Positions 880-39,304 of a stretch of 40,261 nucleotides of DNA are shown here, piece by piece. The stretch is from Candidatus Omnitrophota bacterium. Lineage in GTDB: Bacteria > Omnitrophota > Gorgyraeia > Aquiviventales > Aquiviventaceae. The notes beneath the pieces were generated by a model. It was not told the origin of the DNA and made no database searches. It was given only the letters and a program-made list of their open reading frames with translations. Within the stretch, counting starts at the first letter, position 1. Every line of letters begins with the position of its first letter. The stretch spans positions 1 to 40,261 of the forward strand of contig JACQRD010000080.1 of assembly GCA_016206675.1 (NCBI GenBank), written 5' to 3'. A program made the translations under genes and the position numbers.

Positions 880-927
880 GGGAGTTCATTCTATACTAGA
901 CGAAACGCGGCGTCCAAGCTACCTGGT

Positions 928-1065
928 CCGTTTGTCGGTGACGTTCATCGGTGACGTAGCCCGTGTCGGTGTTCGGTAACGTTGTTCGTCTTACGTCTTT
1001 GACGAATCACGTAACCGACTGACGAAGCGGGCTACGTTACCGACAGACGAATGACGTCACCGAAC
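928..1065. repeat. Imperfect ~138-bp palindromic element of the GGTGACG/CGTCACC word family (copy 1), in the divergent region upstream of tldD.
   Basis: Left arm 928-990, loop 991-1000, right arm 1001-1065. The arms are about 80% complementary. It contains the TGACGTCA palindrome at 1051-1058 and is homologous to 2581-2709. Confidence 0.85.
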
Positions 1066-1094
1066 TATGGAGGACAACCAGAATTCCCTATGCT

Positions 1095-2576: not shown

Positions 2577-2580
2577 TCTC

Positions 2581-2709
2581 CGGTGACGTCATTCGTTTGT
2601 CGGTGACGTGGCCCGTTTCGTCCGTCGGTGACGTTTGTCGTCACAGACGAACGACGTCACCGAACAACGACACGGGCAACGTCACCGATTACCGTCACCG
2701 ACACACGAC
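2581..2709. repeat. Imperfect ~129-bp palindromic element of the GGTGACG/CGTCACC word family (copy 2), between tldD and pmbA.
   Basis: Left arm 2581-2642, 3-nt loop, right arm 2646-2709. TGACGTCA lies at 2583-2590. The sequence is clearly related to 928-1065 (shared tcggtgacgt..atcggtgacgt.gcccgtgtcg). Confidence 0.85.
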
Positions 2710-2711
2710 CA

Positions 2712-4061
2712 ATGATTGGTGAAAACAAGCTCTTAACGACCTTGGCGGGCCTCGTCAAGCGGACAAAGGGGGACGGGGTCAGCGTGTGCGCGCATGCGAA
2801 GACGCGGCGCGTCTCCCGCTTCGCCTACGAAGCCATCCATCAGGATCTGCGGCAGGAGAGCATGGGGGTCACCGTCAAGGTGATCCACAACCGCCGCATC
2901 GGGATCGCCGGCGCAGAGACGCTGGAGGCGGCCAGCTTGAACCGCTGCGCGCGCGCCGCGGCGACCATCGCCCGCCACGCTCCGCAACAGCGTGACCTGC
3001 CGGCACTGCCGCAGCGCTTCCGCACCAGGGACCGGGCGGATTATGCCCCCGCAACGGCGCGCTTGCCAGCGACGGAGTGCGTGGCGGCGCTGAAAGCGCT
3101 CTTGCGCATCTGCCAGGGAGCCGGCGCCGCGCTGGCCGGCTCCCTGGTCACCGGCGAGGATGAGTTCGCGGTGGTCAACTGCGCTGGCGTGGCCTGCTAT
3201 GCCGCCTCGACGGTGGCCAGCGCGAAGCTGGTGACGATGTACCGGAGGTTGTCGGGCTACGCCAGCGGCACGCACCATGACATAGCACAGTTGGATCTGG
3301 AAGCGCTGCTGAAGCGCTCGCTCGCGCAATCGCTCAGCCAGGTCGAGCCGGTCACGCTGCCATTGGGCACCTACGAGGTGATCCTCGAGCCTGAAGCCGT
3401 AGCTGAACTGGTGAGCTGGCTGGGCTACACGGCCTTCGGGGCCAAGGCGGTTGAGGAGCGCTCCAGCTGCCTGGCGGGCCGCCTGGGCGATCAACTCATG
3501 GATCGGCGGATCACCATCTACGATGACGGCAACGACCCCGAGATGCTGCGCATGCCGTTCGACTTCGAGGGCACGCCGAAGCAGCGCGTCACACTCATCG
3601 ACAGCGGCCGGGCCGCCGGCATCGTGTATGATACGCTGTATGGGATGCGCTTCGGCCGTCCCTCCACCGGCCACGGGATGCCGCCGGGCGAAACGGAGGG
3701 CCCGCTGCCGCTGCATCTGGGCATGGCACCCGGAGCGGCCACGATGGAGGAGCTCCTGCGCGCCTGCCCGCGCGGCGTGCTGATTCCGCGGTTTCACTAC
3801 GTCAACGGCCTGCTCAACCCGCGGGAGGCGGTGATGACCGGGCTCACACGGGAGGGCGCGTGGCTCATCGAGGAAGGGCGGCTGACGCGCCCGGTGACGA
3901 CGATGCGCTTCACCCAAAGCATGCTGGAAGCGTTCAGCCATGTGGCCGGCGTCGGCAAGACGCGCGGCCTGATCGCTGACCCCAGCCAAGAGCTGGGTTG
4001 TGCCGTCGTGCCCGCGTTGCATCTCAAGAAATTTGCCTTCACAGGCAGGAGCGAACCGTGA
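2712..4061 (+). CDS. pmbA: Metalloprotease PmbA/TldE
   Basis: TldD/PmbA family ORF. The track ORF starts at GTG 2628, but its first 28 codons are only the translated palindromic element, so ATG 2712 (MIGENKLLTTLAGLVKR) is preferred. Confidence 0.9.
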   Translation: MIGENKLLTTLAGLVKRTKGDGVSVCAHAKTRRVSRFAYEAIHQDLRQESMGVTVKVIHNRRIGIAGAETLEAASLNRCARAAATIARHAPQQRDLPALPQRFRTRDRADYAPATARLPATECVAALKALLRICQGAGAALAGSLVTGEDEFAVVNCAGVACYAASTVASAKLVTMYRRLSGYASGTHHDIAQLDLEALLKRSLAQSLSQVEPVTLPLGTYEVILEPEAVAELVSWLGYTAFGAKAVEERSSCLAGRLGDQLMDRRITIYDDGNDPEMLRMPFDFEGTPKQRVTLIDSGRAAGIVYDTLYGMRFGRPSTGHGMPPGETEGPLPLHLGMAPGAATMEELLRACPRGVLIPRFHYVNGLLNPREAVMTGLTREGAWLIEEGRLTRPVTTMRFTQSMLEAFSHVAGVGKTRGLIADPSQELGCAVVPALHLKKFAFTGRSEP

Positions 4062-5269
4062 AAGGCCGCCTCGCTAGCACTCAGCACACAGCACACAGCA
4101 CACAGTGTTTCTGGTTTTTGCTGTCTGCTGTCTGCTGTCTGCTGTCTGCTGACGGATGTTCGACGCTCGTCCATATGCATCCAGCCGACCGGGCTTCGGC
4201 CGCCTCACAGCAGGCTGAGCCTCCGCTCGAGGATGGCTACACCGACTATGCGGGCATCATTCACGTCCACACCACCTACTCGCACGACGCCCATGGCCGG
4301 TTTGAGGACGTGGTGCGGGTGGCCAACGCCCAGCGGCTGGACTACGTCATCCTCACCGAGCACAACAATCTCCATCCCTTGCGCGACGGCCTGCAAGGAT
4401 GGCACGGGGCCACCCTCGTGCTTGTCGGCATGGAGATCTCCGCGCGCGACGGCCATTACCTGGCCCTGAACGTCACGCAGGAGATTAACCGCGACGCACT
4501 GACCACCCAACAGGTCATCGATGAAGTGGCGCGGCAAGGCGGGTTGGGGTTCATCGCCCACCCCTACTTCAAGCACGGCCGCTGGCGCAACTGGAACGTC
4601 CATGGCTTTACGGGGGTGGAAGCCTACAATGTGGCGCACGACACGCTGGATGAAAACCGGATGCGGCTGGTGCTCTGGACGCTGACGACGCCGGCCGAGC
4701 CGTTTTACTACTCGATTCTGGATAGGCCGTACGATCCCTTGGCGAAGTGGGACGAGCTGATCCGCCAGCACGGCCACGTGGTGGGCATCGGCTCCGCGGA
4801 TGCGCATGAGTTCCATCTGATGGGCATTAAGTTCGCCTCGTATGACGACGTCTTCCAGCTGGTGCGCACCCATGTCTTGTTGCCGGAGCCACCATTGACA
4901 GCGGAGAAGGTCTACTCCGCCCTCAAGCAAGGACATGCGTTCATGTCTATCGGCTTGATCGGCAACGCCAAGGGATTCGCCTTCGTGGCGCAGAAGGATG
5001 ACCGGGTGCTTGGCGTGATGGGGGATAGCGTGGAGCTGACCGACGGGCTGCACCTGACCACGGCGCTGCCGGCTCCGGCGAACCTGACGCTGTTTCGGGG
5101 AGGCGTGCCTGTGGCCAGCTTCACGGGAACGCGCTGGCGCATGCCGGTTGATACGCCGGGTGTCTACCGCGTCGAGGCCATGCGCCATGGCAAGCCATGG
5201 ATCTTCTCGAATCCCATCTACGTGCGCCCGGCGGCGGCGATCGTCGATAGCCCGACGCCGCATGATTAG
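4058..5269 (+). CDS. Exported PHP-domain metal-dependent phosphoesterase-like protein
   Basis: IIHVHTTYSHD and ILTEHN motifs are typical of the PHP fold. GTG 4058 overlaps the pmbA stop as GTGA and gives the signal-peptide-like N-terminus MKGRLASTQHTAHSTQCFWFLLSAVCCLLSADGC. The track start is ATG 3998. Confidence 0.8.
   Translation: MKGRLASTQHTAHSTQCFWFLLSAVCCLLSADGCSTLVHMHPADRASAASQQAEPPLEDGYTDYAGIIHVHTTYSHDAHGRFEDVVRVANAQRLDYVILTEHNNLHPLRDGLQGWHGATLVLVGMEISARDGHYLALNVTQEINRDALTTQQVIDEVARQGGLGFIAHPYFKHGRWRNWNVHGFTGVEAYNVAHDTLDENRMRLVLWTLTTPAEPFYYSILDRPYDPLAKWDELIRQHGHVVGIGSADAHEFHLMGIKFASYDDVFQLVRTHVLLPEPPLTAEKVYSALKQGHAFMSIGLIGNAKGFAFVAQKDDRVLGVMGDSVELTDGLHLTTALPAPANLTLFRGGVPVASFTGTRWRMPVDTPGVYRVEAMRHGKPWIFSNPIYVRPAAAIVDSPTPHD
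4076..4151 (+). repeat. Heptamer-periodic palindromic element of the CAGCASA/YTGTSTG family, translated as the signal peptide of the PHP protein.
   Basis: Arm 4076-4105 is (cagcaca)n, core 4106-4119 is tgtttctggttttt, and arm 4120-4151 is (gctgtct)n. Confidence 0.9.
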
Positions 5270-6272
5270 CAGACAGCAAACAGCAGACAGCAGACAGTAT
5301 TTTTGGCTCTTACTGTGTGCTGTGTGCTGTGTGCTGACGGCTATCCAAGGATGCGCCTATGCGCCATTACGGGAGGGCGCAACTCACACGCTGAAGGCGC
5401 TGCCCCAAGAACTTGTCGTGTACTACGACTACCCCGCGCACCGCCACGAGGCGGTTTCCCTGCTGATTCGGCATCACGCCGCCTTCAGCGAATACCTCGT
5501 GCGATTTCCCCTCTCTCTTCCTGCGGGCCTTAAGCCGACAGAGCCCGTGGTGGAGTTTGAATGGTTTGAATCCCATGCCGTGGGCCGGCGGGGTGCGATC
5601 GTGTTCAACCCGATCCTCGGCGGCGACTACCCGGTGGAGCGGGGCGTCTGCCGCACCTTCGCGCGGCAGGGATGGCACGTGGCACTGGTGCATCGCAAAA
5701 CCCTGAAGGTGTCTCCGGAGCATGAGGTCGCCCATCTGGAGCGGCTGCTGCGCCAGGGGATGGTGCGCATCCGCCAGGTGACGGATTGGATGACGGCGCA
5801 TGAGCGGGTGGATGCCGCGCGGCTGGGCAGTTTCGGCATCAGCATGGGAGGCATCGTCACCGTGATGGCCGCGGCGGTGGAGCCGCGCCTGCACGCGCAC
5901 GTCATCGCGCTGGCTGGGGGACCGCTCGCTGACATCCTCACCTCCTCACCCGACCGGATGATTCGCCAACCCCGCGGCTTGTACCTGGCGCGCAACCGGA
6001 TGGACCTGGAGACGATGGAACGCCTCCTGCGAGAGGCGGTCCACACCGATCCCATCCGCTTAGCCCCCTACGTCGATCGGCGGCGCGTCTTCATGGTGAT
6101 CGCGCTGGCGGATCGCACCATCGGCCGCGCCAACGCCCTGCGTTTGTGGCGGGCGCTGGGCCGCCCGCAAGCCGTGTTTCTGCCGTTCGGGCACTATACG
6201 GCCTACCTCTCTCTGCCCTATCTCCAATACGCCGGTCTGCGCTTCTTGAACGAGCAGCTCGCGAGTCCGTAG
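5262..6272 (+). CDS. Exported alpha/beta-fold hydrolase
   Basis: G-x-S-x-G nucleophile elbow (FGISMGG). ATG 5262 overlaps the upstream stop (ATGATTAG). The N-terminus MISRQQTADSRQYFWLLLCAVCCVLTAIQGC looks like a signal peptide, possibly with a lipobox Cys. The track ORF starts at 5148. Confidence 0.8.
   Translation: MISRQQTADSRQYFWLLLCAVCCVLTAIQGCAYAPLREGATHTLKALPQELVVYYDYPAHRHEAVSLLIRHHAAFSEYLVRFPLSLPAGLKPTEPVVEFEWFESHAVGRRGAIVFNPILGGDYPVERGVCRTFARQGWHVALVHRKTLKVSPEHEVAHLERLLRQGMVRIRQVTDWMTAHERVDAARLGSFGISMGGIVTVMAAAVEPRLHAHVIALAGGPLADILTSSPDRMIRQPRGLYLARNRMDLETMERLLREAVHTDPIRLAPYVDRRRVFMVIALADRTIGRANALRLWRALGRPQAVFLPFGHYTAYLSLPYLQYAGLRFLNEQLASP
5268..5336 (+). repeat. Heptamer-periodic palindromic element of the CAGCASA/YTGTSTG family, translated as the hydrolase signal peptide.
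   Basis: Arm 5268-5297 is (cagcaga)n, core 5298-5312 is tatttttggctctta, and arm 5313-5336 is (ctgtgtg)n. Confidence 0.9.
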
Positions 6273-6337
6273 TCCGAAGTCCGTAGACCGTAGCCAAACC
6301 GCTTTCGCTACGGACTACCGACTACAGACTATGGACT
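6263..6337. repeat. Heptamer-periodic palindromic element of the GTCCGTA word family, between the hydrolase gene and ispH.
   Basis: Arm 6265-6294 (gtccgtagtccgaagtccgtagaccgtagc) pairs with arm 6307-6336 at 25 of 30 positions. The hydrolase stop TAG 6270-6272 lies inside the first word. Confidence 0.85.
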
Positions 6338-6361
6338 AATCCTGCGGTACTTCCGTATAAT
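6332..6361 (+). promoter_or_regulatory. Candidate sigma70-type promoter of ispH giving a leaderless mRNA
   Basis: TGGACT (6332-6337), 18-nt spacer, perfect TATAAT (6356-6361). The ATG at 6368 is only 6 nt after the -10 box and there is no Shine-Dalgarno sequence. Confidence 0.55.
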
Positions 6362-6367
6362 GAACAC

Positions 6368-7342
6368 ATGCCTCTGCAGCGAGTGATCTTGGCCAAACCC
6401 CGCGGCTTCTGCGCCGGCGTAGACCGCGCCATCGAGGTGGTCGAGCAGGCGCTCGAGCGCTTCCCAGGGCCTGTCTACGTAAGGAAGGAAATTGTCCACA
6501 ACCCCCACGTCGTCAACGCCCTGCGGCGCAAGGGCGCGGTTTTCGTCGATGAGCTGACGGAGGTGCCCGCGGGCGCGACGACGATCTTCAGCGCCCACGG
6601 CGTCTCGCCGGCGGTCCATGAGGCCGCCCGGCAGCGGCAGCTGCAGGTGATCGACGCCACCTGCCCGCTGGTCACCAAAGTCCATGTGGAAGCCAAGCGC
6701 TTCGCCCGCGAAGGCTCCACCATGCTGCTGATCGGCCATGCCGGCCATGAAGAGGTGGAGGGCACGATGGGCGAAGCGCCGGCCTCGATCCGGCTGATCC
6801 AGACGGTGGAGGACGCCAAGACTGTCTCCGTGCCCGATCCCGACCGAGTGGCCGTCATCACGCAGACAACGCTGAGCATGGATGACACGCGGGCCATCAT
6901 CGACGCGCTGAAGGCGCGCTTCCCCAAGCTGGTGGTCCCGGCCAAGGAGGATATCTGCTACGCCACCCAAAACCGGCAAAATGCCGTGAAGGCTCTCGCC
7001 AAGGACGCCGAGGTCATCCTGGTGATCGGGGCGAACAACAGCTCCAACTCCATCCGCCTGACGGAAGTGGCCGAAGCGGCGGGGCGGCGCGCGCATCTGA
7101 TCAACGACGCCGGCGAAATCCAGGCCGGCTGGTTCGAGGGGGTTGGGTGCGTCGGGGTGACCTCCGGCGCCTCAGCCCCCGAGCATCTCGTGCAGGAGGT
7201 GGTGGAGGCCCTCAAGCGCCTGGGGGCCACGCAGGTGGAGGAATGGGAGCTGACCCGCGAAGACGTCAGCTTCGGCCTGCCCCTCGAACTGCAGAGACTG
7301 GAAGCTGGAAGCGAGAAACCGGATCCAGCCTCCAGCCTCTAG
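6368..7342 (+). CDS. ispH: 4-hydroxy-3-methylbut-2-enyl diphosphate reductase
   Basis: LytB family with the three cluster cysteines in conserved contexts (GFCAGV, ATCPLV, DICYAT). The last ~14 codons (LEAGSEKPDPASSL) are encoded by a palindromic element. Confidence 0.95.
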   Translation: MPLQRVILAKPRGFCAGVDRAIEVVEQALERFPGPVYVRKEIVHNPHVVNALRRKGAVFVDELTEVPAGATTIFSAHGVSPAVHEAARQRQLQVIDATCPLVTKVHVEAKRFAREGSTMLLIGHAGHEEVEGTMGEAPASIRLIQTVEDAKTVSVPDPDRVAVITQTTLSMDDTRAIIDALKARFPKLVVPAKEDICYATQNRQNAVKALAKDAEVILVIGANNSSNSIRLTEVAEAAGRRAHLINDAGEIQAGWFEGVGCVGVTSGASAPEHLVQEVVEALKRLGATQVEEWELTREDVSFGLPLELQRLEAGSEKPDPASSL

Positions 7343-7353
7343 CCTCCAGCTTC
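7298..7353. repeat. Heptamer-periodic palindromic element of the CTGGAAG/CCTCCAG family, covering the ispH 3' end and stop codon.
   Basis: Arm 7298-7312 is ctggaagctggaagc, the core contains GAAACCGGATC (7315-7325), and arm 7328-7353 is gcctccagcctctagcctccagcttc. It is related to 22913-22982. Confidence 0.85.
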
Positions 7354-7358
7354 GACGC

Positions 7359-7772
7359 ATGAAATCCTTCACCGAGTACCTCTGGTTCGACACTCCGAAG
7401 CGGCAGGACCTGGTCAACATCACCGACCAGATTGAGGCCCTCGTCAAGAAGAGCGGTGTTCAAGACGGCTTCTGCCTCGTTTCCGCCATGCACATTACAG
7501 CGAGCATCTGGGTCAATGACGACGAGGAGGGGCTGTGGGAGGATTTCTGGCGGCTGCTCGAGCGGCTGGCACCTTCCGGGCAGGAGTACAAGCACCACTT
7601 AACCGGCGAGGATAACGGCGACGCCCACCTGAAGCGCACGCTGGTCGGCCACCAGGCGATGCTGCCAATTACCAAAGGCGCGCTCGATCTGGGCCCTTGG
7701 GAGCAAATCTTCTACGCGGAATTCGACGGGCGGCGGAAGAAACGCGTGGTCGTCAAGATCCTGGGGCAGTGA
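7359..7772 (+). CDS. yjbQ: YjbQ/UPF0047 family protein (secondary thiamine-phosphate synthase type)
   Basis: 137-aa ORF with characteristic family length and motifs (SAMHITASIWVNDDE, HLKRTLVG, ILGQ C-terminus). Confidence 0.85.
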   Translation: MKSFTEYLWFDTPKRQDLVNITDQIEALVKKSGVQDGFCLVSAMHITASIWVNDDEEGLWEDFWRLLERLAPSGQEYKHHLTGEDNGDAHLKRTLVGHQAMLPITKGALDLGPWEQIFYAEFDGRRKKRVVVKILGQ

Positions 7773-7791
7773 CGCGCCCCGGCGGCCGGTG

Positions 7792-9468
7792 TTAGCGGCC
7801 GGTCCACGTCACCAGGGAGGTGGTGATTTCGTCCGGATCCGGTGCGAGCGGCCCTTCCTGGCCGATGTCCAGGTGATCCGACTCCAGCTCGATGACCACT
7901 TCGTTGCCCACCACATACTGGATGGCGAGCGGATTCTGGCAGCCGTCCTCGCTCTCCGAACAAGACCGGGAGCGCAGGACCACCAGCGATTCCGGCGCAT
8001 AAATCGACCCCTGAAAGTCATCCCCGGGCCGCATGAAGATCAGGCCGTGGGGCGATTGGCGGTCCGGTCTGGCTTTGAGCGCCGATTGCAGGATTTCCAC
8101 GGTTTGCGGTGTGCCGGCATCGTCGTGGGCGGAGATGGTCGCCGACAGCTCCAGGTTCCACATGGAGCGCAGCCCGAAACTGCTGAGTAATTCCTGCGTC
8201 ATCGGAAACGTCGGCAGACCCGGCAGCTTGAAGGGAGTCCCCACCAGACTGTAGGGCGTGCTACCGGTCAAAATCAAGGTGGTGGGCTTCCTGAACACCA
8301 GCTGGGGGGGGCTGTTGATGATGTCCCCGCCCCATGAACTGAGGTCGCTGCTGGGCACGATGGCCTTGGCACACAACACGATGACCTGGCTGGCCTCCTT
8401 CCCATTGCCCCGGTCCTTGATCGACCCGTCGCAGGTTACGCCAGGCGTGTTGGAGCCCTTTTCGTCATCGCACTCGAACCCGTTGTCGATCGTCACGACG
8501 GGTTGCGTCAGCGTCAGCACGTGGTTGCAGCTGCGGGTGTTGAACATGCTCGCCGTTTCGGCGAGGCCGACGGAGACTGCCCCCTCCACATAGTCGCTGG
8601 TGCCGGCCGCGGTGGCGTTGGGGTTGACGAACGTCACACCGGTCTCCTCAGGCGCCGCTGCCTCCGGGCCGTAGCTGGTTCCCTTAACACCCTGCATCAG
8701 CTCATAGCCTGTCTTGATCCCCTTCAGATCATCGCTGGCGTTGGTGCCCCAGTTGGTGACTTTGTCCCCCAGTGGCGAGGCGACCGTTACCGGCGGGTCG
8801 CTCTCTGACAAGCCGATCAACCCGTCCAGGCGAAGAACCGAATCTCCCGCGTGGGTCGTCTGCCAGGCGTGGGTCAACGTGTTCATGATGGTCTCGCCAC
8901 CAGGTGAAGGGTTGATCGCCGAGAGCACGGAACCGCGGGATGACAGTACGTTCCCGCTGACGAACGCCTTGGAGGTCTCGGTTAACTTGCCGCCGCCGAT
9001 GGCGATCGTGCCATTCGCCCAGACGCCGGTCAACGGCCCCTCCTCCTTGACGTAGGCCGTAACCTTCTGCGGCCCGGACGAAGCGGCCGTGCTTTTGGCC
9101 TCGATCTTGTAAATGATCTCTTGCTGCGGATTGAACACATAGTTGGCCTTGTGGCGGCTCTTGCCGTTGGTGTCGTTGTAAATCTTGGCGTGGACCGGAA
9201 CAATCCTGAAGGTCGCGCCGGGCAGCGACTTCACGTCATGCGTGGTCATCGCGGTCAGGGCGTCGGTCTTGTTGTGGACGAAGAAATGATCCAGGGCGCC
9301 TTCCGACATCCAGAAGGCCTGTTGGGTGTCACGGGAGACCTGCGAAGCGCGCACTTCGGTGTTGGTGCGCTGCAGTGACACCCCCCCCAGCAGGAGGAGG
9401 ATGAGGGCGGACAGATAGACCGCGAGCAGAAAGACGGCCCCGCGGTCATTCTTGAGCGATACGTTCAT
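7792..9468 (-). CDS. Large exported or membrane-anchored protein with a PilX-like (type IV pilus minor pilin/adhesin) N-terminal domain
   Basis: Strong Shine-Dalgarno site (GAAGGAGCAAG then ATG). The N-terminus DRGAVFLLAVYLSALILLLLGGVSLQRTNTEVRASQVSRDTQQAFWMSEGAL matches the PilX_N pattern of a TM helix followed by AF..AE.GL. I recognise no family in the remaining ~490 aa, which look beta-rich. Confidence 0.6.
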   Translation of the reverse strand: MNVSLKNDRGAVFLLAVYLSALILLLLGGVSLQRTNTEVRASQVSRDTQQAFWMSEGALDHFFVHNKTDALTAMTTHDVKSLPGATFRIVPVHAKIYNDTNGKSRHKANYVFNPQQEIIYKIEAKSTAASSGPQKVTAYVKEEGPLTGVWANGTIAIGGGKLTETSKAFVSGNVLSSRGSVLSAINPSPGGETIMNTLTHAWQTTHAGDSVLRLDGLIGLSESDPPVTVASPLGDKVTNWGTNASDDLKGIKTGYELMQGVKGTSYGPEAAAPEETGVTFVNPNATAAGTSDYVEGAVSVGLAETASMFNTRSCNHVLTLTQPVVTIDNGFECDDEKGSNTPGVTCDGSIKDRGNGKEASQVIVLCAKAIVPSSDLSSWGGDIINSPPQLVFRKPTTLILTGSTPYSLVGTPFKLPGLPTFPMTQELLSSFGLRSMWNLELSATISAHDDAGTPQTVEILQSALKARPDRQSPHGLIFMRPGDDFQGSIYAPESLVVLRSRSCSESEDGCQNPLAIQYVVGNEVVIELESDHLDIGQEGPLAPDPDEITTSLVTWTGR

Positions 9469-9602: not shown

Positions 9603-10820
9603 TTACCTGATCTCGCCGCGGCGCAGCAAGCGGACGAGATCGAGGTGATGGTAGGCGCCTTTTGCGGCCGGCGTCTGGGCGCCGGCATTGGCCACCCACA
9701 GATCAGGCCACGCGAAGATCACGCTCTGGATGTTGGAATCTGGAGCGACGGCCTTTGCAATCTCTTGTGCAGCAAGAGGATCCAGCGAACCAAAGCGCGC
9801 CTGAAGACCGGCGGCCTGCCCCAGATAGCGGACATCGTACGCTGAGCTGCCTGCGGGATCTTCCAGCCCAGGCCGTTGCGGATCGCCCCGGGAGGCGGTT
9901 TGCCGGTCGCGAATCGCCGGGTCCATCGCGGCATCCGCCCGCAGCACGGCATCCGGCAGCGGCCGCGCATAGCTGACGGCGTGCTCCTGTGGATCGTCAG
10001 CCGCAAACACGCGCGCGAGCGTATGGGTCGTCTCCATCGCGATCGCCCGGCGCGCCTTGGCGTCGGCCACCACGTAATTCACGCCGACGGTGCGGCGGGC
10101 CTCGCGAATGATCCGGGAGGCTTCGTCCAGCTCGCCGGCATGCTCCAGCACGCGGCGCATCAGGAAGGCCATCGGCTCACCGGCAAAGCTGAGATCCGTC
10201 GTCGCCGCGCCGACCTGGCCGAGGGAAATCTGCGCCTCGTTGACGCCGGTCAGCAGGCCGACAAAGCCTGCCCACCCGACGCTGACAAAGGCGCGCTTCC
10301 CGATGGGGTGAATAACAAAAACGGCGGGGTACTGCTGGATGCCGGCCTTAATGTTCCAGTCCAGGTTGCGCAAATGGATCAGGCGCCCATTCGCGGTGGT
10401 CCGTCCCCAGGCGGCAAAGTTGGCGCAGGAGTAGGTACGCTCCGGAATGGCGTGCAGGCGGTACAGCTCGCGCACAGCCACACCGGAGCCCTCAGCCACA
10501 CCCCGCAGCTCCTCCCAAATCTCCGATGGAATAAAGGGCGCGGCCCGCCCCCACGCGGCGTCCAACCACCAGTTGGCGGCGAGTGTCCGCACCAGCGGCA
10601 GCTTCAAGTAGCGGCGGAAATGGCGCAGGACCTGGCCGACGGCGGCCTGCACCTGCTGCCGCAAGAGCTGCCCGTGCTGCCGGCCTATGTCGTAGGGGCG
10701 GCCCTCGAGATAGACGACCGTGAGGCCATTGATCTCTTCAACCTTGGCCGCCCATGCGTTAGCACACAGCACACAGCAGACAGCACACAGCACAAACCAT
10801 ATCCGAGCCAGATGTCTCAT
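9603..10820 (-). CDS. Exported C45-family (acyl-CoA:6-aminopenicillanic-acid acyltransferase-like) Ntn hydrolase
   Basis: Signal peptide MRHLARIWFVLCAVCCVLCANAWA. The YSCANFAAWGRTTANGRLIHLRNLDW region is typical of C45/choloylglycine-like Ntn hydrolases. Its ATG overlaps the upstream stop as ATGA (10817-10820). Confidence 0.6.
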   Translation of the reverse strand: MRHLARIWFVLCAVCCVLCANAWAAKVEEINGLTVVYLEGRPYDIGRQHGQLLRQQVQAAVGQVLRHFRRYLKLPLVRTLAANWWLDAAWGRAAPFIPSEIWEELRGVAEGSGVAVRELYRLHAIPERTYSCANFAAWGRTTANGRLIHLRNLDWNIKAGIQQYPAVFVIHPIGKRAFVSVGWAGFVGLLTGVNEAQISLGQVGAATTDLSFAGEPMAFLMRRVLEHAGELDEASRIIREARRTVGVNYVVADAKARRAIAMETTHTLARVFAADDPQEHAVSYARPLPDAVLRADAAMDPAIRDRQTASRGDPQRPGLEDPAGSSAYDVRYLGQAAGLQARFGSLDPLAAQEIAKAVAPDSNIQSVIFAWPDLWVANAGAQTPAAKGAYHHLDLVRLLRRGEIR

Positions 10821-10859
10821 GGCCTGACACTGTTTGCTGTTTGCTGTTTGCTGTTTGCT
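10761..10859 (-). repeat. Heptamer-periodic palindromic element of the CAGCAAA/CTGTGTG family, straddling the ceramidase/C45 gene junction.
   Basis: Plus-strand arms are 10761-10797 and 10830-10859. The 32-nt loop carries the ATGA stop/start overlap. In the sense direction, the first arm encodes the ceramidase tail SKQQTANSVRP and the second arm encodes the C45 signal peptide. Confidence 0.9.
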
Positions 10860-12151
10860 ACTGAATCGAGCAGTTCGATCAGGCGAGCCACGACGAGCTC
10901 GCCCGCGTGGGGCCCGTTAAAGCCCATCAGCGCTTCATACTCGCCCGACTCGTACCTCGCAGCGGGCATGCAGTAGCCGATGTAGTCGTTGGCGAACCCG
11001 GCCACGATAGGAAACAGGCCCCTCGCTCGGGCGGCTTCTTTCAGCTGCCGCCCCAGCGAGGCGGAGAGATCGCAGGGTGCGCCGAACCAGACCGCCTCAC
11101 CGATTCGCACCACCGACACCGTCGCATCATCGTCGACGAACCGGCGGCTCAGCCATGACGGCAGCGCCACGTGGCGGCTGAAGCGCAGGCGCGCCGGCGG
11201 CAGCAGCAGCCGCTGCTGCAGCGCCTGCACGGCCGAAACCGGCTGGGGGGAGGCGCCCGCCAGCACGCGCTCGGCATGCCGCGCTAACGGCGCGCCGAGG
11301 AACTCCGCCCGCTCGAAGCGATCGCCGGATTTCACCGGCGCCTGATCGCCCACCGACGCTGCAAAGAACACCGCCACCGCCTGGGGAAACCGCTGCTCAA
11401 GCTCGCGGATGACCACGCCGGGATAATCCGCCGAGAGCTCCATGTTCCAAGCCCCCAACGTCGTCGGGTGGGCCGCGAAGGCGACCATCACCGCCAACGG
11501 CGTTGAGCTGCCGCGTTCATAGAACGCGCAGACCGGCAGCTCATTGTCGACGAAGCCGCCCTCTTCCACGCGATTCGTCACCAGCCCGTCGGGGGAGGCG
11601 CAGGCGCACGCCATGGCGGCCGGCCGGCGCGCCCGGTACGCGTGACCGATGGCGCGGCTGGCCGACGAGACGATCGCGTCAAAGACCGCCGGGTCAAAGT
11701 GCCCCATGGAAATTTTCTCAAGGAATCGGCTGCCGTAGGCGCCCGGGCCCGAGTGGGTATGCGTGGCCGAGAAGAACAGGGTGGTGCCAGCCGGCAGGCC
11801 TTCGGCGGCCAGCCGCCGCTCAACCGCCGCGAAGAGCCGCTCGTCAACAATCAGCAGGTCGCCGCTGGCCATGGCGACGGTCGTCTCCTCGTCTTGGAGC
11901 ACGAGGGCCCGCACGCCCACCGGATCGTGCCGGCCGGTGGACGGACGGCCCTTGCGGCGGCTGTACCCTGCCAGCGGCACCTTCGCTGGTAACTGGAACT
12001 CCTCTTTCGCGACCCCGACCGTGACCTCAGCCCATGCCCCCAGCGGAAGACAGCTCAGAAACAGTCCGCAGACGGCAGACGGCAGACGGCAGCGCTTCCA
12101 TGTTCTGCGGACTGCGGACTGCGGACTACGGACTGCCATGCAGCTTCTCAC
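10817..12151 (-). CDS. Exported neutral/alkaline ceramidase-family amidohydrolase
   Basis: GYSRRKGRPSTGRHDPVGVRALVL and SATHTHSGPG motifs are typical of the neutral ceramidase N-terminal domain. Signal peptide ...RCRLPSAVCGLFLSCLPLGAWA. The start is GTG 12151 or ATG 12139, and either overlaps the cca 3' end. Confidence 0.7.
   Translation of the reverse strand: MRSCMAVRSPQSAVRRTWKRCRLPSAVCGLFLSCLPLGAWAEVTVGVAKEEFQLPAKVPLAGYSRRKGRPSTGRHDPVGVRALVLQDEETTVAMASGDLLIVDERLFAAVERRLAAEGLPAGTTLFFSATHTHSGPGAYGSRFLEKISMGHFDPAVFDAIVSSASRAIGHAYRARRPAAMACACASPDGLVTNRVEEGGFVDNELPVCAFYERGSSTPLAVMVAFAAHPTTLGAWNMELSADYPGVVIRELEQRFPQAVAVFFAASVGDQAPVKSGDRFERAEFLGAPLARHAERVLAGASPQPVSAVQALQQRLLLPPARLRFSRHVALPSWLSRRFVDDDATVSVVRIGEAVWFGAPCDLSASLGRQLKEAARARGLFPIVAGFANDYIGYCMPAARYESGEYEALMGFNGPHAGELVVARLIELLDSVANSKQQTANSVRP
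12062..12135 (-). repeat. Heptamer-periodic imperfect palindrome (GCAGACG versus CTGCGGA/GTCCGTA words) across the cca/ceramidase junction.
   Basis: Arm 12062-12092 is cagtccgcag(acggcag)x3 and arm 12105-12135 is (ctgcgga)x3ctacggactg. Only about 5 of 7 positions per word are complementary. It contains the cca stop (12126-12128) and encodes part of the ceramidase signal peptide. Confidence 0.75.
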
Positions 12152-13598: not shown

Positions 13599-13624
13599 CG
13601 TCAACCGATGGGTATCACGCGCAC

Positions 13625-13652: not shown

Positions 13653-13668
13653 AGGAGCATCATTCGCA

Positions 13669-27094: not shown

Positions 27095-27658
27095 TTACCG
27101 GCCTTGAGCCGCCGGCGCGGCGAGGCGGCTGTTGAGCAGCTTGAGCACCCCATCCGTCACATCGTAGCCGGACTGCGCATAGAAGAGCCCCCGCTGGTCA
27201 AGGATGAGGGCGAAGCCGTTCGCCTTGGCGTATTCGTCGATGGCCTTCTGGATATCCTTCAGGATCTCCTGTGCCAGCTTGTCGCGGTCGCGCCGCAGAT
27301 CCCGCGCAGTGCTGGCACGGAAGCGCTGCAACTCCTCCGACTGTTCCTCGACCTCGCGGGACTTCGCCTCGCGCGCGGCGTCGTTGAGCAGCTCCAGGCT
27401 CTGGCGGATCTTCTTCAGGGCGTTGACGCGCGCCTCGAGCTCTGCTTCCTTGGCCTTGCCGCGCTTTTCCAGCGCCGCGTCTTGCGCCTTCGTCCGCTCG
27501 TAGCCGTCGAAGACCTTCGCCAAGTTCACATAGCCAATCTTCAACTCCGCCGCTGAGACAACCGGACACGGATAAGCAGACAGCAGACAGCAGACAGCAG
27601 ACAGTAAAAGCCCAAACTGCCTGCTGTGTGCTGTGTGCTGATTGCTGTATGCTCTCAT
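27095..27658 (-). CDS. skp: Periplasmic chaperone Skp/OmpH
   Basis: Signal peptide, then IGYVNLAKVF and a long coiled-coil region typical of OmpH, located immediately downstream of bamA. Confidence 0.82.
   Translation of the reverse strand: MRAYSNQHTAHSRQFGLLLSAVCCLLSAYPCPVVSAAELKIGYVNLAKVFDGYERTKAQDAALEKRGKAKEAELEARVNALKKIRQSLELLNDAAREAKSREVEEQSEELQRFRASTARDLRRDRDKLAQEILKDIQKAIDEYAKANGFALILDQRGLFYAQSGYDVTDGVLKLLNSRLAAPAAQGR
27575..27653 (-). repeat. Heptamer-periodic palindromic element of the CAGCAGA/CTGTGTG family, translated as the Skp signal peptide.
   Basis: Plus-strand arm 27575-27604 is (agcagac)n, core 27605-27620, arm 27621-27653. The sense strand encodes YSNQHTAHSRQFGLLLSAVCCLLSA. 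Confidence 0.9.
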
Positions 27659-37114: not shown

Positions 37115-37933
37115 CTAGAGCGCATCATCACGATCACACGCTTGAACCGCCACATCTCCAATTGGATCGAACCCCGACTCCATCAGGAGAGCTGGGGAGC
37201 CAGGATTCGAACCTGGAGTCTTCTGATCCAAAGTCAGATGTGCTGCCATTGCACCACTCCCCAACGAGTTGCCGACCCCCATGATCCATCCGGCGATCCG
37301 ACGATTCAATGCGCTACTGCAAGCAACTCTGACTCGCACCAGGCCATGATACGCATCACCAACATTGGTCCTGCGAGTCGCGGGGCGGTGGCGCTTCCAT
37401 CGAACGTGCGCCAGTTTCTCAACGGGAACCTGTAGTTGCGTCGACCAAAAACTCCGAGCGCGTTGCGCATCACCCGTTTCATGGAGATACAGCTCGAAGC
37501 TCAGTTGCTCCTCTGAGACACCACAGATCTCTTGGGCCCATCTCATGAACAATTTGATAGCGAGGGGATCGGAGTTGGTGAAAATGACGCTTGCCGAAAC
37601 GTTTCCGGGCTTTTGCTTTGCCCCTTCAGCCCAGTAGAGCGCGAGTCCCAGCAACCAGAGGTCTCGCCGAGACAGTACGCCGATTTCTTGACTCGACGCT
37701 TCAAGAAGGGCCTGCGTTCGCGCGATGCGAGCTGCTTTGACGACCGCCGCCCCTTTTCGCTGCGCAATACGCTTCAACTCTGTCAGTCGTTGTGGTTGAG
37801 TTTCCACCAATCCTTCGGCCTTCAACCAACGCCATAACGTCGATTTGGCTACTCGGGACTGCCGGAGGATGGCCTCGTACGTCAACCCTTGACGCCGCAG
37901 ACGGAGAGCTCCATCGCGTTCAGATCGCTTCAT
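37115..37933 (-). CDS. HTH-domain protein with a LAGLIDADG-like (homing-endonuclease-like) core. The ORF has no stop of its own and reads through tRNA-Gln.
   Basis: The N-terminus has a resolvase/IS-type HTH (LTYEAILRQSRVAKSTLWRWLK). LLGLALYWAEGAK resembles a LAGLIDADG motif, followed by a VIFTNSDP...FMRW pattern. Codons from LGSGAMAAHLTLDQKTPGSNPGSP onward are the tRNA sequence itself. GC content is markedly lower than in the flanks. Confidence 0.5.
   Translation of the reverse strand: MKRSERDGALRLRRQGLTYEAILRQSRVAKSTLWRWLKAEGLVETQPQRLTELKRIAQRKGAAVVKAARIARTQALLEASSQEIGVLSRRDLWLLGLALYWAEGAKQKPGNVSASVIFTNSDPLAIKLFMRWAQEICGVSEEQLSFELYLHETGDAQRARSFWSTQLQVPVEKLAHVRWKRHRPATRRTNVGDAYHGLVRVRVACSSALNRRIAGWIMGVGNSLGSGAMAAHLTLDQKTPGSNPGSPALLMESGFDPIGDVAVQACDRDDAL
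37192..37263 (-). tRNA. tRNA-Gln (anticodon UUG)
   Basis: Hand-folded cloverleaf TGGGGAG-TG-GTGC..AGCAC-A-TCTGA-CTTTGGA-TCAGA-AGAC-TCCAGG-TTCGAAT-CCTGG-CTCCCCA-G. It has a 7-bp acceptor stem with the U1-A72 pair typical of bacterial tRNA-Gln, the GTTCGAATC T-loop, and no encoded CCA. Confidence 0.9.
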
Positions 37934-39259: not shown

Positions 39260-39304
39260 AGCACACAGCACTCAGCAATCAGCACACAGCAACTGCGGAC
39301 TGCC
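39260..39304. repeat. Solo arm of the heptamer-word families (agcacac/agcactc/agcaatc words followed by ctgcggactgcc), with no complementary partner nearby.
   Basis: agcacacagcactcagcaatcagcacacagcaactgcggactgcc. I found no inverted copy within the 39253-39331 spacer. Confidence 0.6.

What the first reader, a model, noticed from the sequence alone, without database searches (positions are those of the whole stretch)
4076..5336. One palindromic family acts as a ready-made signal-peptide cassette (QQTADSR - FWLLL - SAVCCLL) on at least four exported proteins
Four copies share one architecture: 4076-4151, 5268-5336, 10761-10859 (minus) and 27575-27653 (minus). Each has (CAGCASA)3-4, then a conserved core reading T[TA]Y KGG YTY KTR CTG, then (YTGTSTG)3-4, which is the approximate inverse complement of the first arm.

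All four are co-oriented with the gene, judged from the asymmetric core. All four are translated from within about 20 nt of the start codon:
- PHP protein: MKGRLASTQHTAHSTQCFWFLLSAVCCLLSA.
- Hydrolase: MISRQQTADSRQYFWLLLCAVCCVLTA.
- C45 hydrolase: MRHLARIWFVLCAVCCVLCANAWA.
- Skp: MRAYSNQHTAHSRQFGLLLSAVCCLLSA.

The polar arm gives the n-region. The core plus second arm give the hydrophobic h-region. A GCAGACG-word relative does the same for the ceramidase (RCRLPSAVCGLFLSCLPLGAWA).

Because 7 is coprime to 3, three heptads equal seven codons. All three frames therefore give the same cyclic peptide: TCTGCTGx3 gives SAVCCLL, LLSAVCC or CCLLSAV, and CAGCAGAx3 gives QQTADSR. Neither strand arm contains a stop in any frame, so an insertion in any frame yields a hydrophobic helix. 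The same sequence should form a 24-30-bp mRNA hairpin over roughly codons 5-30, which could also gate translation of secreted proteins.
Basis: partly seen in the sequence, partly recalled or inferred. Interest (0 to 1): 0.85.

Follow-up and report, generated by a model that had tools for sequence, protein, structure and literature searches.

The report
Repeat hairpins encoding signal peptides
In this uncultured bacterium, copies of a hairpin made of tandem 7-base repeats sit at the start of genes for exported proteins and are translated as their signal peptides, which shows repetitive DNA being reused to build export signals.

Summary
Four copies of (CAGCA[C/G/A]A)3-4 – T-rich loop – (T[G/C]TGCTG)3-4 lie where stated. 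The pattern gave 22 hits against 0 in shuffles.

All five host proteins (PHP, S9-type hydrolase, C45, ceramidase, Skp) are exported. A syntenic relative without repeats (L124) has ordinary 18-24-residue signal peptides or lipoboxes at the same cleavage sites. In the window the n- and h-regions upstream of those sites are encoded by the repeat.

The same happens across relatives with many different 7-mer words. Among orthologues, 38/115 Skp and 26/97 hydrolase N-termini contain a 7-residue stretch that exactly three copies of some 7-mer would encode (0.2-0.3 expected). In 65 metagenome loci, repeats sit at the skp 5' end in 20/62, against 5/133 cytoplasmic-gene 5' ends. Where a word contains a stop, only the in-frame units are mutated.

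It is not a dedicated cassette. The family belongs to a wider class of tandem-7/8-mer hairpins that make up about 25% of this window's intergenic DNA. A fifth copy is untranslated, upstream of cytoplasmic IspE. In relatives the polar arm lies in frame inside HisH and PurL.

Best reading: permissive repeat DNA co-opted as signal peptides. I found no published precedent. Export itself is untested.

The parts
4058..4159 (+). Signal-peptide coding region of the PHP-domain lipoprotein: GTG start at 4058 (GTGA overlap with the upstream TldD-like stop) to the lipobox Cys codon at 4157-4159
   Evidence: L124 orthologue MRNRLLLALFLLLTGC|SAL aligns with window ..LLSADGC|STL.
4076..4105 (+). Element 1, arm 1: (AGCACAC)x4.3, translated STQHTAHSTQ (n-region)
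   Evidence: TRF; translation.
4106..4118 (+). Element 1, T-rich loop (TGTTTCTGGTTTT), translated C-F-W-F
4119..4151 (+). Element 1, arm 2: (TGCTGTC)x4.7, translated LLSAVCCLLSA (h-region)
5262..5354 (+). Signal-peptide coding region of the S9-type hydrolase lipoprotein: ATG at 5262 (overlaps the PHP stop at 5267-5269) to the lipobox Cys codon at 5352-5354
   Evidence: The lipobox ..GC|AYAPLR is shared by most of the orthologues listed. The database gene call P0121 starts inside arm 2.
5268..5297 (+). Element 2, arm 1: (AGCAGAC)x4.3, translated SRQQTADSRQ
5298..5310 (+). Element 2, loop (TATTTTTGGCTCT), translated Y-F-W-L
5311..5336 (+). Element 2, arm 2: (CTGTGTG)x3.4, translated LLCAVCCVL
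10830..10859 (-). Element 3, arm 1: (CAGCAAA)x4.3 on the gene strand. Translated as the C-terminal tail of the ceramidase (..VANSKQQTANSVRP*), not as part of C45
   Evidence: The tail is absent from L124.
10795..10829 (-). Element 3, long loop. It holds the ceramidase stop and the C45 start (ATGA overlap, ATG at 10820-10818)
10761..10794 (-). Element 3, arm 2: (TGTGCTG)x4.9, translated VLCAVCCVLCA, the h-region of the C45 signal peptide (cleavage NAWA|AK)
   Evidence: L124 C45 MRAVSRLFLLLAVCCVPLATAEA|VEGE.
27551..27658 (-). Skp signal-peptide coding region: ATG at 27658 preceded by a GAGGAG Shine-Dalgarno sequence, to VVSA|AELKIGYV
   Evidence: There is no in-frame alternative start before the cleavage site.
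27622..27653 (-). Element 4, arm 1: (CAGCACA)x4.6, translated YSNQHTAHSRQ
27605..27621 (-). Element 4, loop (approximate bounds; read on the gene strand as ..GCAGTTTGGGCTTTTAC), translated F-G-L-L
27575..27604 (-). Element 4, arm 2: (CTGTCTG)x4.3, translated LSAVCCLLSA
12062..12136 (-). Ceramidase 5' arrays: (GCAGTCC)x4.6 then (CTGCCGT)x3.6, translated AVRSPQSAVRR..RLPSAVCGL within the signal peptide (cleavage AWA|EV). A TAG in unit 2 is the stop codon of the upstream CCA-adding-enzyme gene
   Evidence: L124 ceramidase ..SLVCEWSEA|AEVRAGVA.
39260..39291 (-). Fifth, half copy of the same word, (TGCTGTG)x4.6 on the gene strand. Untranslated, 7 nt upstream of the homology-supported ATG (39252) of cytoplasmic IspE

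Best explanation
The four sites are paralogous copies of one hairpin-forming inverted repeat of tandem heptamers. The A-rich word CAGCA[C/G/A]A comes first, then a T-rich loop, then the complementary word T[G/C/T]TGCTG. This family is one word-class of a lineage-wide class of tandem 7/8-mer inverted repeats that accumulate at gene junctions.

Two properties let a copy at the 5' end of a gene be read through:
- 7 is coprime to 3, so three units are seven codons and every frame gives the same cyclic peptide.
- This word has no stop codon on either strand.

The T-rich arm gives Cys/Leu/Ala/Val/Ser. It ranks in the top 0.5-2% for hydrophobicity among all stop-free heptamer words. Its complement necessarily gives a polar Gln/Thr/His/Ser/Arg/Asp stretch. 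The result is an n-region followed by an h-region.

In five envelope proteins of this window that repeat-encoded stretch has replaced the ancestral signal peptide. The host-derived cleavage site is kept: an SPase I A-x-A site in Skp, C45 and ceramidase, and a lipobox Cys in PHP and the hydrolase.

Shown here: the anatomy, the paralogy, the exported status of the proteins in relatives, the aligned cleavage sites, the lack of alternative starts, the recurrence across relatives, enrichment at skp, and frame-specific removal of stops.

Inferred: that Sec/Lsp actually use these peptides, how the copies spread, and that the repeats persist because signal peptides, like intergenic DNA and surface loops, tolerate them (co-option rather than a purpose-built cassette).
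For: 1. Anatomy and non-randomness: (22 hits against 0 in shuffles). Shared loop sequence.

2. Proteins are exported. Pfam identifies OmpH/Skp, ceramidase, AAT/C45, PHP and Peptidase_S9. The repeat-free syntenic locus L124 has ordinary signal peptides or lipoboxes on all four neighbouring proteins, with cleavage sites aligned to the window.

3. Skp: a GAGGAG-ATG start, no in-frame start before VSA|AELKIGYV, and 115 orthologues keep that site.

4. Hydrolase: the lipobox GC|AYAPLR is shared by most of the orthologues listed.

5. Recurrence. A 7-residue window that exactly three copies of some 7-mer would encode occurs in 38/115 Skp and 26/97 hydrolase N-termini. Composition-preserving shuffles give 0.21 and 0.30. 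The mature parts give 0 and 4.

6. DNA-level arrays lie in the skp 5' region in L120, L121 and L122 and in 20/62 metagenome loci. The 5' zones of lpxC, lpxA, lpxI and dnaB have them in 5/133 (Fisher p = 1.4e-7).

7. Window tally, from my own classification: 5 of 6 proteins with cleavable signal peptides have arrays in the signal peptide, against 0 of about 33 others (hypergeometric p about 1e-5).

8. Translation signature. Some words contain a stop: CTTCTGA in L120 skp and L123 PHP, and CTTAGTG in the L123 hydrolase. In these, exactly the units where the stop would be in frame are mutated (TGA to TGT, TAG to TAT), and out-of-frame units keep the stop.

9. The same word forms the signal peptide of SurA (L052) and of the lipoprotein LptE (L107) in other MAGs.

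10. Hydropathy: the hydropathy of a word and of its reverse complement correlate at r = -0.71.
Against: - No signal-peptide predictor and no experiment was available. Export is inferred from orthologues and from inspecting the n/h/c regions.
- The gene calls stored in the database for this very contig start downstream of, or inside, the arrays (P0001 Skp 149 aa; P0121 hydrolase 313 aa).
- PHP has an in-frame ATG downstream of the element, so a cytoplasmic isoform cannot be excluded.
- The lipobox -2/-3 residues (A-D-G-C and I-Q-G-C) are not canonical.
- The enrichment counts come from loci that are not phylogenetically independent, and from one gene neighbourhood only.
- Many skp arrays belong to related words, so they may reflect one old insertion rather than many events.
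- The stop-purging evidence rests on only three arrays.
Confidence: 0.75

Rival explanations
1. The RNA hairpin is the selected function. A stem of 25-30 bp at or just after the start codon controls translation initiation, translational coupling, mRNA processing or mRNA stability of envelope-protein genes. Coding for a signal peptide is a tolerated by-product.
For: - Stable predicted hairpins of -42 to -53 kcal/mol, z down to -5.3.
- Both arms are maintained, even where only one is translated (element 3; L121, L125).
- In many relatives the skp hairpin pairs the Shine-Dalgarno/ATG region (arm word GGAGACA in the bamA-skp spacer) with the h-region codons about 100 nt downstream.
- The same class fills intergenic spacers inside operons.
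Against: - No covariation test was possible, because word changes spread to both arms by an unknown route.
- Every heptad carries a mismatch, and the ceramidase arms pair at only 4 of 7 positions.
- Loop length varies from 2 to about 340 nt.
- Arrays are not terminator-like.
- Frame-specific stop removal and the extreme hydrophobicity of the chosen word point to selection at the protein level.
- This reading is compatible with the best explanation and does not exclude it.
Confidence: 0.3
2. A dedicated mobile signal-peptide cassette. The element spreads as a unit and is selected because it confers or upgrades export on whatever ORF it lands in front of.
For: - Four copies with homologous loops in one 40-kb window.
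- Another genome shares one word between its Skp and PHP signal peptides.
- The same word serves SurA, LptE, hydrolase and Skp in other MAGs.
- The word is among the most hydrophobic possible.
Against: - All recipients already had signal peptides in the repeat-free relative, so no new export is gained.
- No target-site duplication, terminal signature or transposase was seen.
- Copies of the same word are untranslated (IspE 5'UTR, UbiD 5'UTR) or sit inside cytoplasmic enzymes.
- In L123 PHP the array sits upstream of a retained old h-region.
- Most arrays of the class are intergenic.
Confidence: 0.15
3. Phase-variable contingency loci, like the Neisseria opa CTCTT repeats. Gain or loss of one 7-nt unit shifts the frame and switches the exported protein off or on.
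For: - Non-triplet tandem repeats lie inside the leader-peptide coding region, as in opa (PMC3960869).
- Several database orthologues are called with starts inside arm 2 (MCCVLCASGC..). These could be out-of-phase alleles.
Against: - Arrays are short (3-5 units).
- The hosts are housekeeping envelope proteins (Skp, SurA, LptE).
- All five window ORFs are in phase.
- Three near-identical contigs from different samples (L131, L132, L133) have identical unit numbers.
- The truncated calls are equally explained by gene-caller behaviour, as seen for this window.
Confidence: 0.1
4. The arrays are untranslated 5'UTR or intergenic repeats. The real start codons lie downstream, as the automatic gene calls imply.
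For: The gene calls stored for this contig skip the arrays (P0001, P0121). PHP has an in-frame ATG after the element. Arrays upstream of cytoplasmic genes are indeed untranslated.
Against: - It would strip the signal peptide or lipobox from proteins that carry one in every relative examined.
- Skp and the hydrolase have no in-frame start between the h-region and the cleavage site.
- The frame stays open across arrays whose words contain stops.
Confidence: 0.05

Closest known systems
Neisseria opa pentamer coding repeats (CTCTT)n in the leader-peptide region
   Same: A tandem repeat whose unit is not a multiple of 3 lies inside the signal-peptide coding region. It is translated as part of the leader in whichever frame it is read (PMC3960869; the hydrophobic-core detail is from my own knowledge of Stern et al. 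1986).
   Different: opa has a single direct array with no inverted partner and no hairpin. It is long and hypervariable, and it works as an on/off switch for a surface adhesin. Here there are short paired arrays forming a hairpin on housekeeping envelope proteins, with no unit-number variation seen, and both the n- and h-regions are supplied.
Rickettsia palindromic elements (RPE)
   Same: A dispersed palindromic repeat found both between genes and in frame inside protein-coding genes, tolerated where the extra peptide does no harm (my own knowledge, Ogata et al. 2000). The HisH, PurL and GatA insertions in relatives look the same.
   Different: RPEs are 100-150 bp unique-sequence palindromes, not tandem heptamers. 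They are not known to furnish signal peptides. There is no sequence similarity, and the taxon differs.
Cyanobacterial STRR (short tandemly repeated repetitive) heptanucleotide repeats
   Same: Tandemly amplified heptanucleotide words, several word families per genome, mostly intergenic (my own knowledge, Mazel et al. 1990).
   Different: Different words and a different phylum. STRR are not described as paired inverted arrays translated into signal peptides. No paper in the searchable library links them.
REP/BIME-type extragenic palindromes
   Same: Short hairpin-forming repeats that accumulate in intergenic spacers of operons, as most arrays of this class do here.
   Different: REPs are extragenic by definition, are not built from tandem heptamers, and are tied to RAYT transposases. 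None of that was seen here.
Tandem repeats of Borg elements and PARCEL palindromic coding repeats
   Same: Fast-evolving repeats that create new peptide segments and are enriched in extracellular or signal-peptide proteins (PMC9879509). Palindromic coding repeats readable on both strands (PMC2996958).
   Different: In Borgs every repeat inside an ORF has a unit length divisible by three, whereas here the unit is 7. Those repeats make disordered or amphipathic domains, not the signal peptide itself.

Membership tests
Sec (SPase I) signal peptide | N-terminal position, basic n-region, hydrophobic h-region of about 7-15 residues, and small residues at -3/-1 before the mature protein | tested here: met
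   By inspection. Skp MRAYSNQHTAHSRQ-FGLLLSAVCCLLSAY-PCPVVSA|AE. C45 MRHLAR-IWFVLCAVCCVLCA-NAWA|AK. Ceramidase ..RRTWKRCR-LPSAVCGLFLSCLPLG-AWA|EV. No SignalP run was possible.
Sec (SPase I) signal peptide | Orthologues are exported and the cleavage site aligns | tested here: met
   115 Skp orthologues keep A-x-A|(A/Q/E)ELKIGYV. L124 C45 and ceramidase have ordinary signal peptides at aligned sites.
Sec (SPase I) signal peptide | Demonstrated translocation and cleavage | not testable with these tools
   Needs reporter fusions or N-terminal proteomics.
Lipoprotein (SPase II) signal peptide | Invariant Cys at +1 preceded by the lipobox [LVI][ASTVI][GAS] | tested here: inconclusive
   The Cys and the Gly at -1 are conserved: hydrolase ..AIQGC|AYAPLR (most of the orthologues listed) and PHP ..SADGC|STL against L124 ..LLTGC|SAL. 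The residues at -2 (Q, D) are non-canonical.
Neisseria opa-type phase-variable coding repeat | Non-triplet tandem repeat inside the leader-peptide coding region | tested here: met
Neisseria opa-type phase-variable coding repeat | Unit-number polymorphism that switches the reading frame | tested here: inconclusive
   No difference among the near-identical contigs L131, L132 and L133. No read-level data.
REP/BIME | Strictly extragenic location | tested here: not met
   380 of 975 array nucleotides lie inside ORFs, in signal peptides and C-terminal tails.
REP/BIME | Associated RAYT (IS200/IS605-like) transposase | not testable with these tools
   None among the window's Pfam hits. The rest of the genome is not available.
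MITE | Terminal inverted repeats flanked by target-site duplications | tested here: not met
   The flanks of the four copies share no duplication: left GCT/ATT/TAC/AGT, right ACGG/ACGG/TATCC/AACGC.
Rickettsia palindromic element | Membership of the RPE sequence families | not tested
   No RPE sequence comparison was run. RPE architecture recalled from my own knowledge (long unique-sequence palindromes) differs from these tandem heptamers, and the lineage is unrelated.
Cyanobacterial STRR | Tandem heptanucleotide units | tested here: met
   TRF period 7.
Cyanobacterial STRR | STRR consensus words (CCCCAGT, TTGGTCA, CAACAGT) in heterocystous cyanobacteria | tested here: not met
   Words here are CAGCAGA, AGTCCGT, GGTTCGG and others. 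The closest relatives are MAGs labelled Omnitrophota/NC10.
Intrinsic terminator | GC-rich hairpin followed by a U-run | tested here: not met
   In the scanned half of the window (1-20000), one of 11 terminator-like sites (12080-12064, minus strand) falls inside a ceramidase array, and the total of 11 does not exceed the 10.9 expected from shuffles. Positions 20001-40261 were not scanned.

The most novel reading that the evidence does not exclude
In a whole uncultured lineage (and perhaps in Acidobacteriota too), hairpins made of tandem heptamers may be a standing source of new signal peptides. The genetic code pairs T-centred hydrophobic codons with A-centred polar codons, and a 7-nt unit visits all three frames. 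Any stop-free A-rich/T-rich inverted heptamer repeat is therefore an automatic generator of an n-region followed by an h-region.

On this reading, such arrays repeatedly overwrite the leaders of core envelope proteins (Skp, SurA, LptE, lipoproteins). They change word by concerted evolution and are homogenised within each genome. Their mRNA stem ties the translation of secreted proteins to RNA structure.
Probability: 0.3. Interest if true: 0.85.

Novelty: new variant of a known kind. Interest (0 to 1): 0.72.

Why it matters
Signal peptides are usually treated as slowly drifting parts of their genes. Here the n- and h-regions of several housekeeping envelope proteins are encoded by a dispersed DNA repeat, and this recurs across many relatives with different repeat words.

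If confirmed, this would:
- give a concrete, testable route by which export signals are born and replaced;
- show that repeats whose unit is not a multiple of three can be stably translated, in contrast to the rule reported for Borg repeats;
- link the sense/antisense hydropathy pattern of the genetic code to a real architectural outcome.

It also has a practical side. Automatic gene callers mis-place the start codons of these exported proteins, as they did for both checked genes on this contig. Secretome predictions for such MAGs will therefore be biased.

Tried and rejected
1. Proteome-wide census of the cassette peptide.
- A profile of the four window cassettes against 1.84 billion representatives gave only 3 hits at E <= 1e-3.
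- An idealised 43-residue cassette against the 5.8-billion collection gave 29 short, mostly spurious ORFs.

2. Genome-collection scan with GCTGTNTGCTGTNTGCTGTNTGCTG.
- It returned mostly unrelated simple microsatellites from many phyla (Treponema, Streptomyces, Bacteroidota and others).
- Only L004, L042, L044, L052, L065 and L107 were informative.

3. Residue-level period-7 identity was too insensitive, because the arms span only 7-10 residues. I replaced it with the exact 'encodable by three copies of a 7-mer' window test.

4. An exact look-up of the long Skp product found nothing, because the stored gene call is the truncated one.

5. Intrinsic-terminator reading of the arrays: rejected for the scanned half of the window. 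One terminator-like site lies in a ceramidase array, with no excess over shuffles.

6. MITE reading: rejected, no target-site duplications.

7. Known RNA family: none over the arrays at Rfam gathering thresholds.

8. Literature searches for heptanucleotide or palindromic repeats encoding signal peptides, for this lineage, and for the literal peptide and DNA strings found no precedent. Subscription-only papers were not searched.

9. The co-orientation argument carries little weight. Arm order is orientation-invariant, and only three loops are informative.


Full report
**1. Observation**

TRF and my own period scan give two arms for each:
- 4076-4105 and 4119-4151
- 5268-5297 and 5311-5336
- 10830-10859 and 10761-10794 (minus strand)
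- 27622-27653 and 27575-27604 (minus strand)

The word pattern occurs 22 times in the window and never in 100 dinucleotide-preserving shuffles. The quoted translations are right.

The loops share a motif, roughly TTTNTGGYTYTTR. The copies are therefore paralogues and not independent local expansions.

Predicted RNA hairpins are -42 to -53 kcal/mol. Each heptad carries one systematic mismatch, because arm 1 and arm 2 always use different variants of the fifth base.

Corrections to the finding:
- In element 3 the C45 ATG lies in the loop and overlaps the ceramidase stop (ATGA). Arm 1 is translated as a 14-residue C-terminal tail of the ceramidase (..DSVANSKQQTANSVRP*), which the relative L124 lacks (..DGVQ*).
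- The two ceramidase arrays pair at only 4 of 7 positions.

**2. Context in the window**

The window is about 65% GC. It carries a conserved envelope and housekeeping gene set: TldD pair, PHP, hydrolase, IspH; C45, ceramidase, CCA-adding enzyme; GlpD/GlpK; RlmD, rhomboid, LpxI, LpxA, LpxC-FabZ, Skp, BamA, DnaB, L9, S18, SSB, S6, Pth, L25, Prs, GlmU, IspE.

It is full of 'tandem 7-mer (sometimes 8-mer) x3-5 / spacer / complementary array' hairpins built from many different words, including AGTCCGT, CTGGAAG, GGTTCGG and CGTGAATG.
- Arrays total 975 nt and make up 25% of the intergenic nucleotides.
- The 380 array nucleotides inside ORFs are all in the signal-peptide regions of five proteins or in C-terminal tails. 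None lies in a conserved protein body.
- The arrays upstream of Pth and of the second TldD gene are likewise untranslated.

**3. Are the host proteins exported, and is the element translated?**

The decisive comparison is L124 (GCA_900218045.1). It is a syntenic relative with no arrays in 21 kb. Its proteins have ordinary leaders at positions that align with the window's cleavage sites:

| Protein | L124 (no arrays) | Window |
|---|---|---|
| PHP | MRNRLLLALFLLLTGC\|SAL | ..LLSADGC\|STL |
| Hydrolase | MRRGPVTLCALGVLFTGC\|AYAPLR | ..AIQGC\|AYAPLR |
| C45 | MRAVSRLFLLLAVCCVPLATAEA\|VEGE | ..NAWA\|AK |
| Ceramidase | ..SLVCEWSEA\|AEVRAGVA | ..AWA\|EVTVGVA |

The 115 Skp orthologues with a recognisable anchor keep A-x-A|(A/Q/E)ELKIGYVN. 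Most of the hydrolase orthologues listed keep the lipobox ..GC|AYAPLR. PHP and the hydrolase are therefore lipoproteins.

Starts and alternatives:
- In Skp an ATG with a GAGGAG Shine-Dalgarno sequence precedes the element, and no in-frame start follows before the cleavage site.
- In the hydrolase the only later starts are GTG codons inside arm 2, which would leave no h-region.
- The gene calls stored in the database for this contig start at L39 (Skp, P0001) and at V24 inside arm 2 (hydrolase, P0121). Both remove the leader and are best read as caller errors.
- For PHP a downstream in-frame ATG exists, so a second isoform cannot be excluded.

**4. Generality across relatives**

Orthologue N-termini carry many different repeat-encoded motifs at the same place. 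Examples are SEVRGQR/LLTSDFCPL, QKAEGRE/LLPSAYC, SLVTCHL, CPLSPVPCP, LLLTAYC and CCLLSAV.

I counted 7-residue windows that exactly three copies of some 7-mer would encode. There are 11,260 such peptides out of 20^7.

| Set | N-termini with such a window | Shuffle mean (max) | Proteins with a hit in the mature part |
|---|---|---|---|
| Skp | 38/115 | 0.21 (2) | 0 (17,024 residues) |
| Hydrolase | 26/97 | 0.30 (3) | 4 (34,382 residues) |

DNA from syntenic assemblies confirms heptamer arrays in skp in L120, L121 and L122. It also confirms arrays in PHP, hydrolase and C45 of L123.

In 65 non-redundant metagenome loci chosen only by mature-Skp homology (304 kb), arrays fall as follows:
- 33 of the 45 arrays are at the skp 5' end.
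- The skp 5' zone holds an array in 20/62 loci, and bamA in 3/29.
- The lpxC, lpxA, lpxI and dnaB 5' zones hold one in 5/133. Fisher p = 1.4e-7 for skp against these.
- No array lies in any other gene body.
- 40 of the 65 loci have no arrays at all.

Caveat: these loci are not phylogenetically independent and cover one neighbourhood only.

In the window itself, by my classification, 5 of 6 proteins with cleavable leaders have arrays in the leader (BamA is the exception). None of about 33 other proteins does.

**5. Direct sequence evidence of translation**

Some arm words contain a stop codon. A tandem 7-mer visits every frame, so an unmutated array of three or more units closes all three frames. 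In three arrays, exactly the units where the stop would be in frame are changed, and the out-of-frame units keep it:
- L120 skp: CTTCTGA, with the two in-frame units changed to TGT.
- L123 PHP: CTTCTGA, with one in-frame unit changed to TGT.
- L123 hydrolase: CTTAGTG, with the in-frame TAG changed to TAT.

 The sample is small, but the pattern is what selection for read-through predicts.

**6. Why an inverted heptamer repeat makes a leader**

Each of the seven bases serves once as a codon's middle base. The number of T's in the word therefore sets the number of strongly hydrophobic residues. The complement has the same number of A-centred polar residues.

Over the 8,264 heptamers that are stop-free on both strands, the hydropathy of a word and that of its reverse complement correlate at r = -0.71.

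TGCTGT[C/G/T] ranks in the top 0.5-2% for hydrophobicity. Its complements score -1.5 to -2.1. An element with the A-rich arm first thus reads as a polar stretch followed by a hydrophobic one. This is what the sequences show.

**7. Limits of the 'cassette' idea**

The same word family serves as the leader of SurA (L052) and of the lipoprotein LptE (L107) in MAGs labelled Omnitrophota. But several observations argue against a dedicated cassette:
- The polar arm alone lies in frame inside cytoplasmic HisH (ASTQHTAHSTQQQ, L042) and PurL (IQHTAHSIQHTEG, L044).
- Other words lie in one and the same loop of GatA in two genomes (L052, L042).
- One copy sits in the UbiD 5'UTR (L004).
- In L123 PHP both arms sit in the n-region, upstream of a retained old h-region. 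This looks like an intermediate stage before the old core is lost.
- Every recipient already had a leader in the array-free relative, so no new export is created.
- I saw no target-site duplications and no transposase.
- Element lengths of 76, 69 and 79 nt are not all multiples of three.

The words found at skp form a single-substitution network. 23 of 25 have a neighbour at distance 1 or less, against a null mean of 48% and a maximum of 76%. Part of this comes from arm pairs within one element. The pattern fits old arrays that change word by concerted evolution as well as it fits repeated insertion.

**8. Mechanism chosen**

The best reading is permissive, hairpin-forming repeat DNA that persists wherever its translation is harmless: spacers, C-terminal tails, surface loops and signal peptides. 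In leaders it has been co-opted and has replaced the ancestral n- and h-regions, while the host's cleavage site is retained.

Rivals:
- An RNA-level role of the stem is a live, non-exclusive alternative. In relatives the skp stem pairs a GGAGACA spacer array, which is Shine-Dalgarno-like and includes the ATG, with the h-region codons.
- opa-like phase variation is possible but unsupported. Unit numbers are identical in three near-identical contigs.
- The 'non-coding, start downstream' view is contradicted by the comparative data.

**9. Comparison with what is known**

The closest analogues are:
- the Neisseria opa CTCTT leader repeats (PMC3960869);
- Rickettsia palindromic elements and cyanobacterial STRR heptamers (both from my own knowledge);
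- REP/BIME elements;
- Borg tandem repeats, where all repeats inside ORFs have units divisible by three (PMC9879509);
- PARCEL palindromic coding repeats (PMC2996958).

This element fails a tested defining feature of REP, STRR, MITE and intrinsic terminators. RPE sequence membership was not tested. opa-type switching stays open, because unit-number variation could only be checked on three contigs.

Nine literature searches, including the literal peptide and DNA strings, found no description of repeat-encoded signal peptides of this kind. I rate it a new variant of a known kind.

**10. What remains unproven**

- Actual export and cleavage.
- The mode of spread.
- Any regulatory role of the stem.
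- A genome-wide census. The two protein-database attempts failed for technical reasons.

Noticed in passing
window 9477-9577 (-): c-di-GMP-I riboswitch (RF01051, 56 bits against a gathering score of 35). It lies directly upstream of the 558-residue ORF 7792..9468 (-), which has a pilin-like hydrophobic N-terminus and no Pfam hit.
   Followed up: no
window 37191-37263 (-): tRNA-Gln (TTG). It lies inside the 272-residue 'HTH_23' ORF 37115..37933, so that ORF is at least partly spurious. SpoVG and this stretch are absent between IspE and GlmU in the syntenic locus L120.
   Followed up: partly
window 6264-6338, 7298-7350, 19270-19340, 21638-21727, 22913-22982, 24798-24858, 31822-31904, 32166-32231, 33632-33761: Other members of the tandem-7/8-mer inverted-repeat class, built from different words. 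They fill operon spacers and make up 25% of all intergenic nucleotides. The GGTTCGG/ACCCACA word occurs three times. Two elements use 8-mers. Orthologous spacers in relatives (LpxI-rhomboid, rhomboid-RlmD) hold arrays with different words.
   Followed up: partly
window 4076-4151, 5268-5336, 10761-10859, 27575-27653: In all four elements the two arms use different variants of the variable base (CAC/GAC/AAC). Every heptad of the stem therefore has one mismatch, and no copy is a perfect palindrome.
   Followed up: partly
window 27095-27658 (-) and 5262-6272 (+): The gene calls stored for this contig (P0001 149 aa, P0121 313 aa) start downstream of, or inside, the arrays and remove the signal peptide. 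Many orthologue calls begin MCCVLCA.. for the same reason. Secretome predictions for such MAGs will be biased.
   Followed up: yes
L121 6221-6332; L134, L141, L146, L149, L185 (skp 5' regions): In many relatives arm 1 of the skp hairpin is a GGAGACA array in the bamA-skp spacer. It looks like repeated Shine-Dalgarno sites and contains the ATG, made by a G-to-T change in one unit. Arm 2 (CTGTCTC/TGTCCCC) encodes ..SPVPCP.. just before the cleavage site. The window's Skp c-region AYPCPVVSA may be a remnant of that older arm.
   Followed up: partly
L042 5538-5573 and 7238-7303; L044 4885-4911 and 5221-5251; L052 6848-6881: Heptamer arrays translated in frame inside cytoplasmic enzymes: HisH-type GATase, PurL, and GatA at the same loop in two genomes. 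This resembles Rickettsia palindromic elements.
   Followed up: partly
L123 6683-7160: At the PHP-hydrolase junction of a relative, about 340 nt of unrelated GC-rich sequence sits between the two arms. The frame in phase with the hydrolase is open across the whole stretch.
   Followed up: no
P0243; genome-collection loci from Pyrinomonadaceae, Blastocatellia, Thermoanaerobaculia and Phycisphaerales: The same cassette (MRDSGQRTADSNFQAFLLSAVCCLLSIPALS|QVTEKISVERV..) heads a fragment that looks to me like an Acidobacteria-type VWFA-related protein. Serial arrays of different heptamers also occur in those phyla. The phenomenon may extend beyond this lineage.
   Followed up: no
window 37920-38408 (-) and 25748-27073 (-): The SpoVG ORF carries a zinc-ribbon insertion within the SpoVG domain. 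LpxC and FabZ are fused into one 441-residue protein.
   Followed up: no
window 12126-12139 (-): One unit of the ceramidase arm 1 (GTAGTCC instead of GCAGTCC) provides the TAG stop of the upstream CCA-adding-enzyme gene. In the ceramidase frame the same bases read Arg-Ser. One array therefore serves two overlapping ORF ends.
   Followed up: yes
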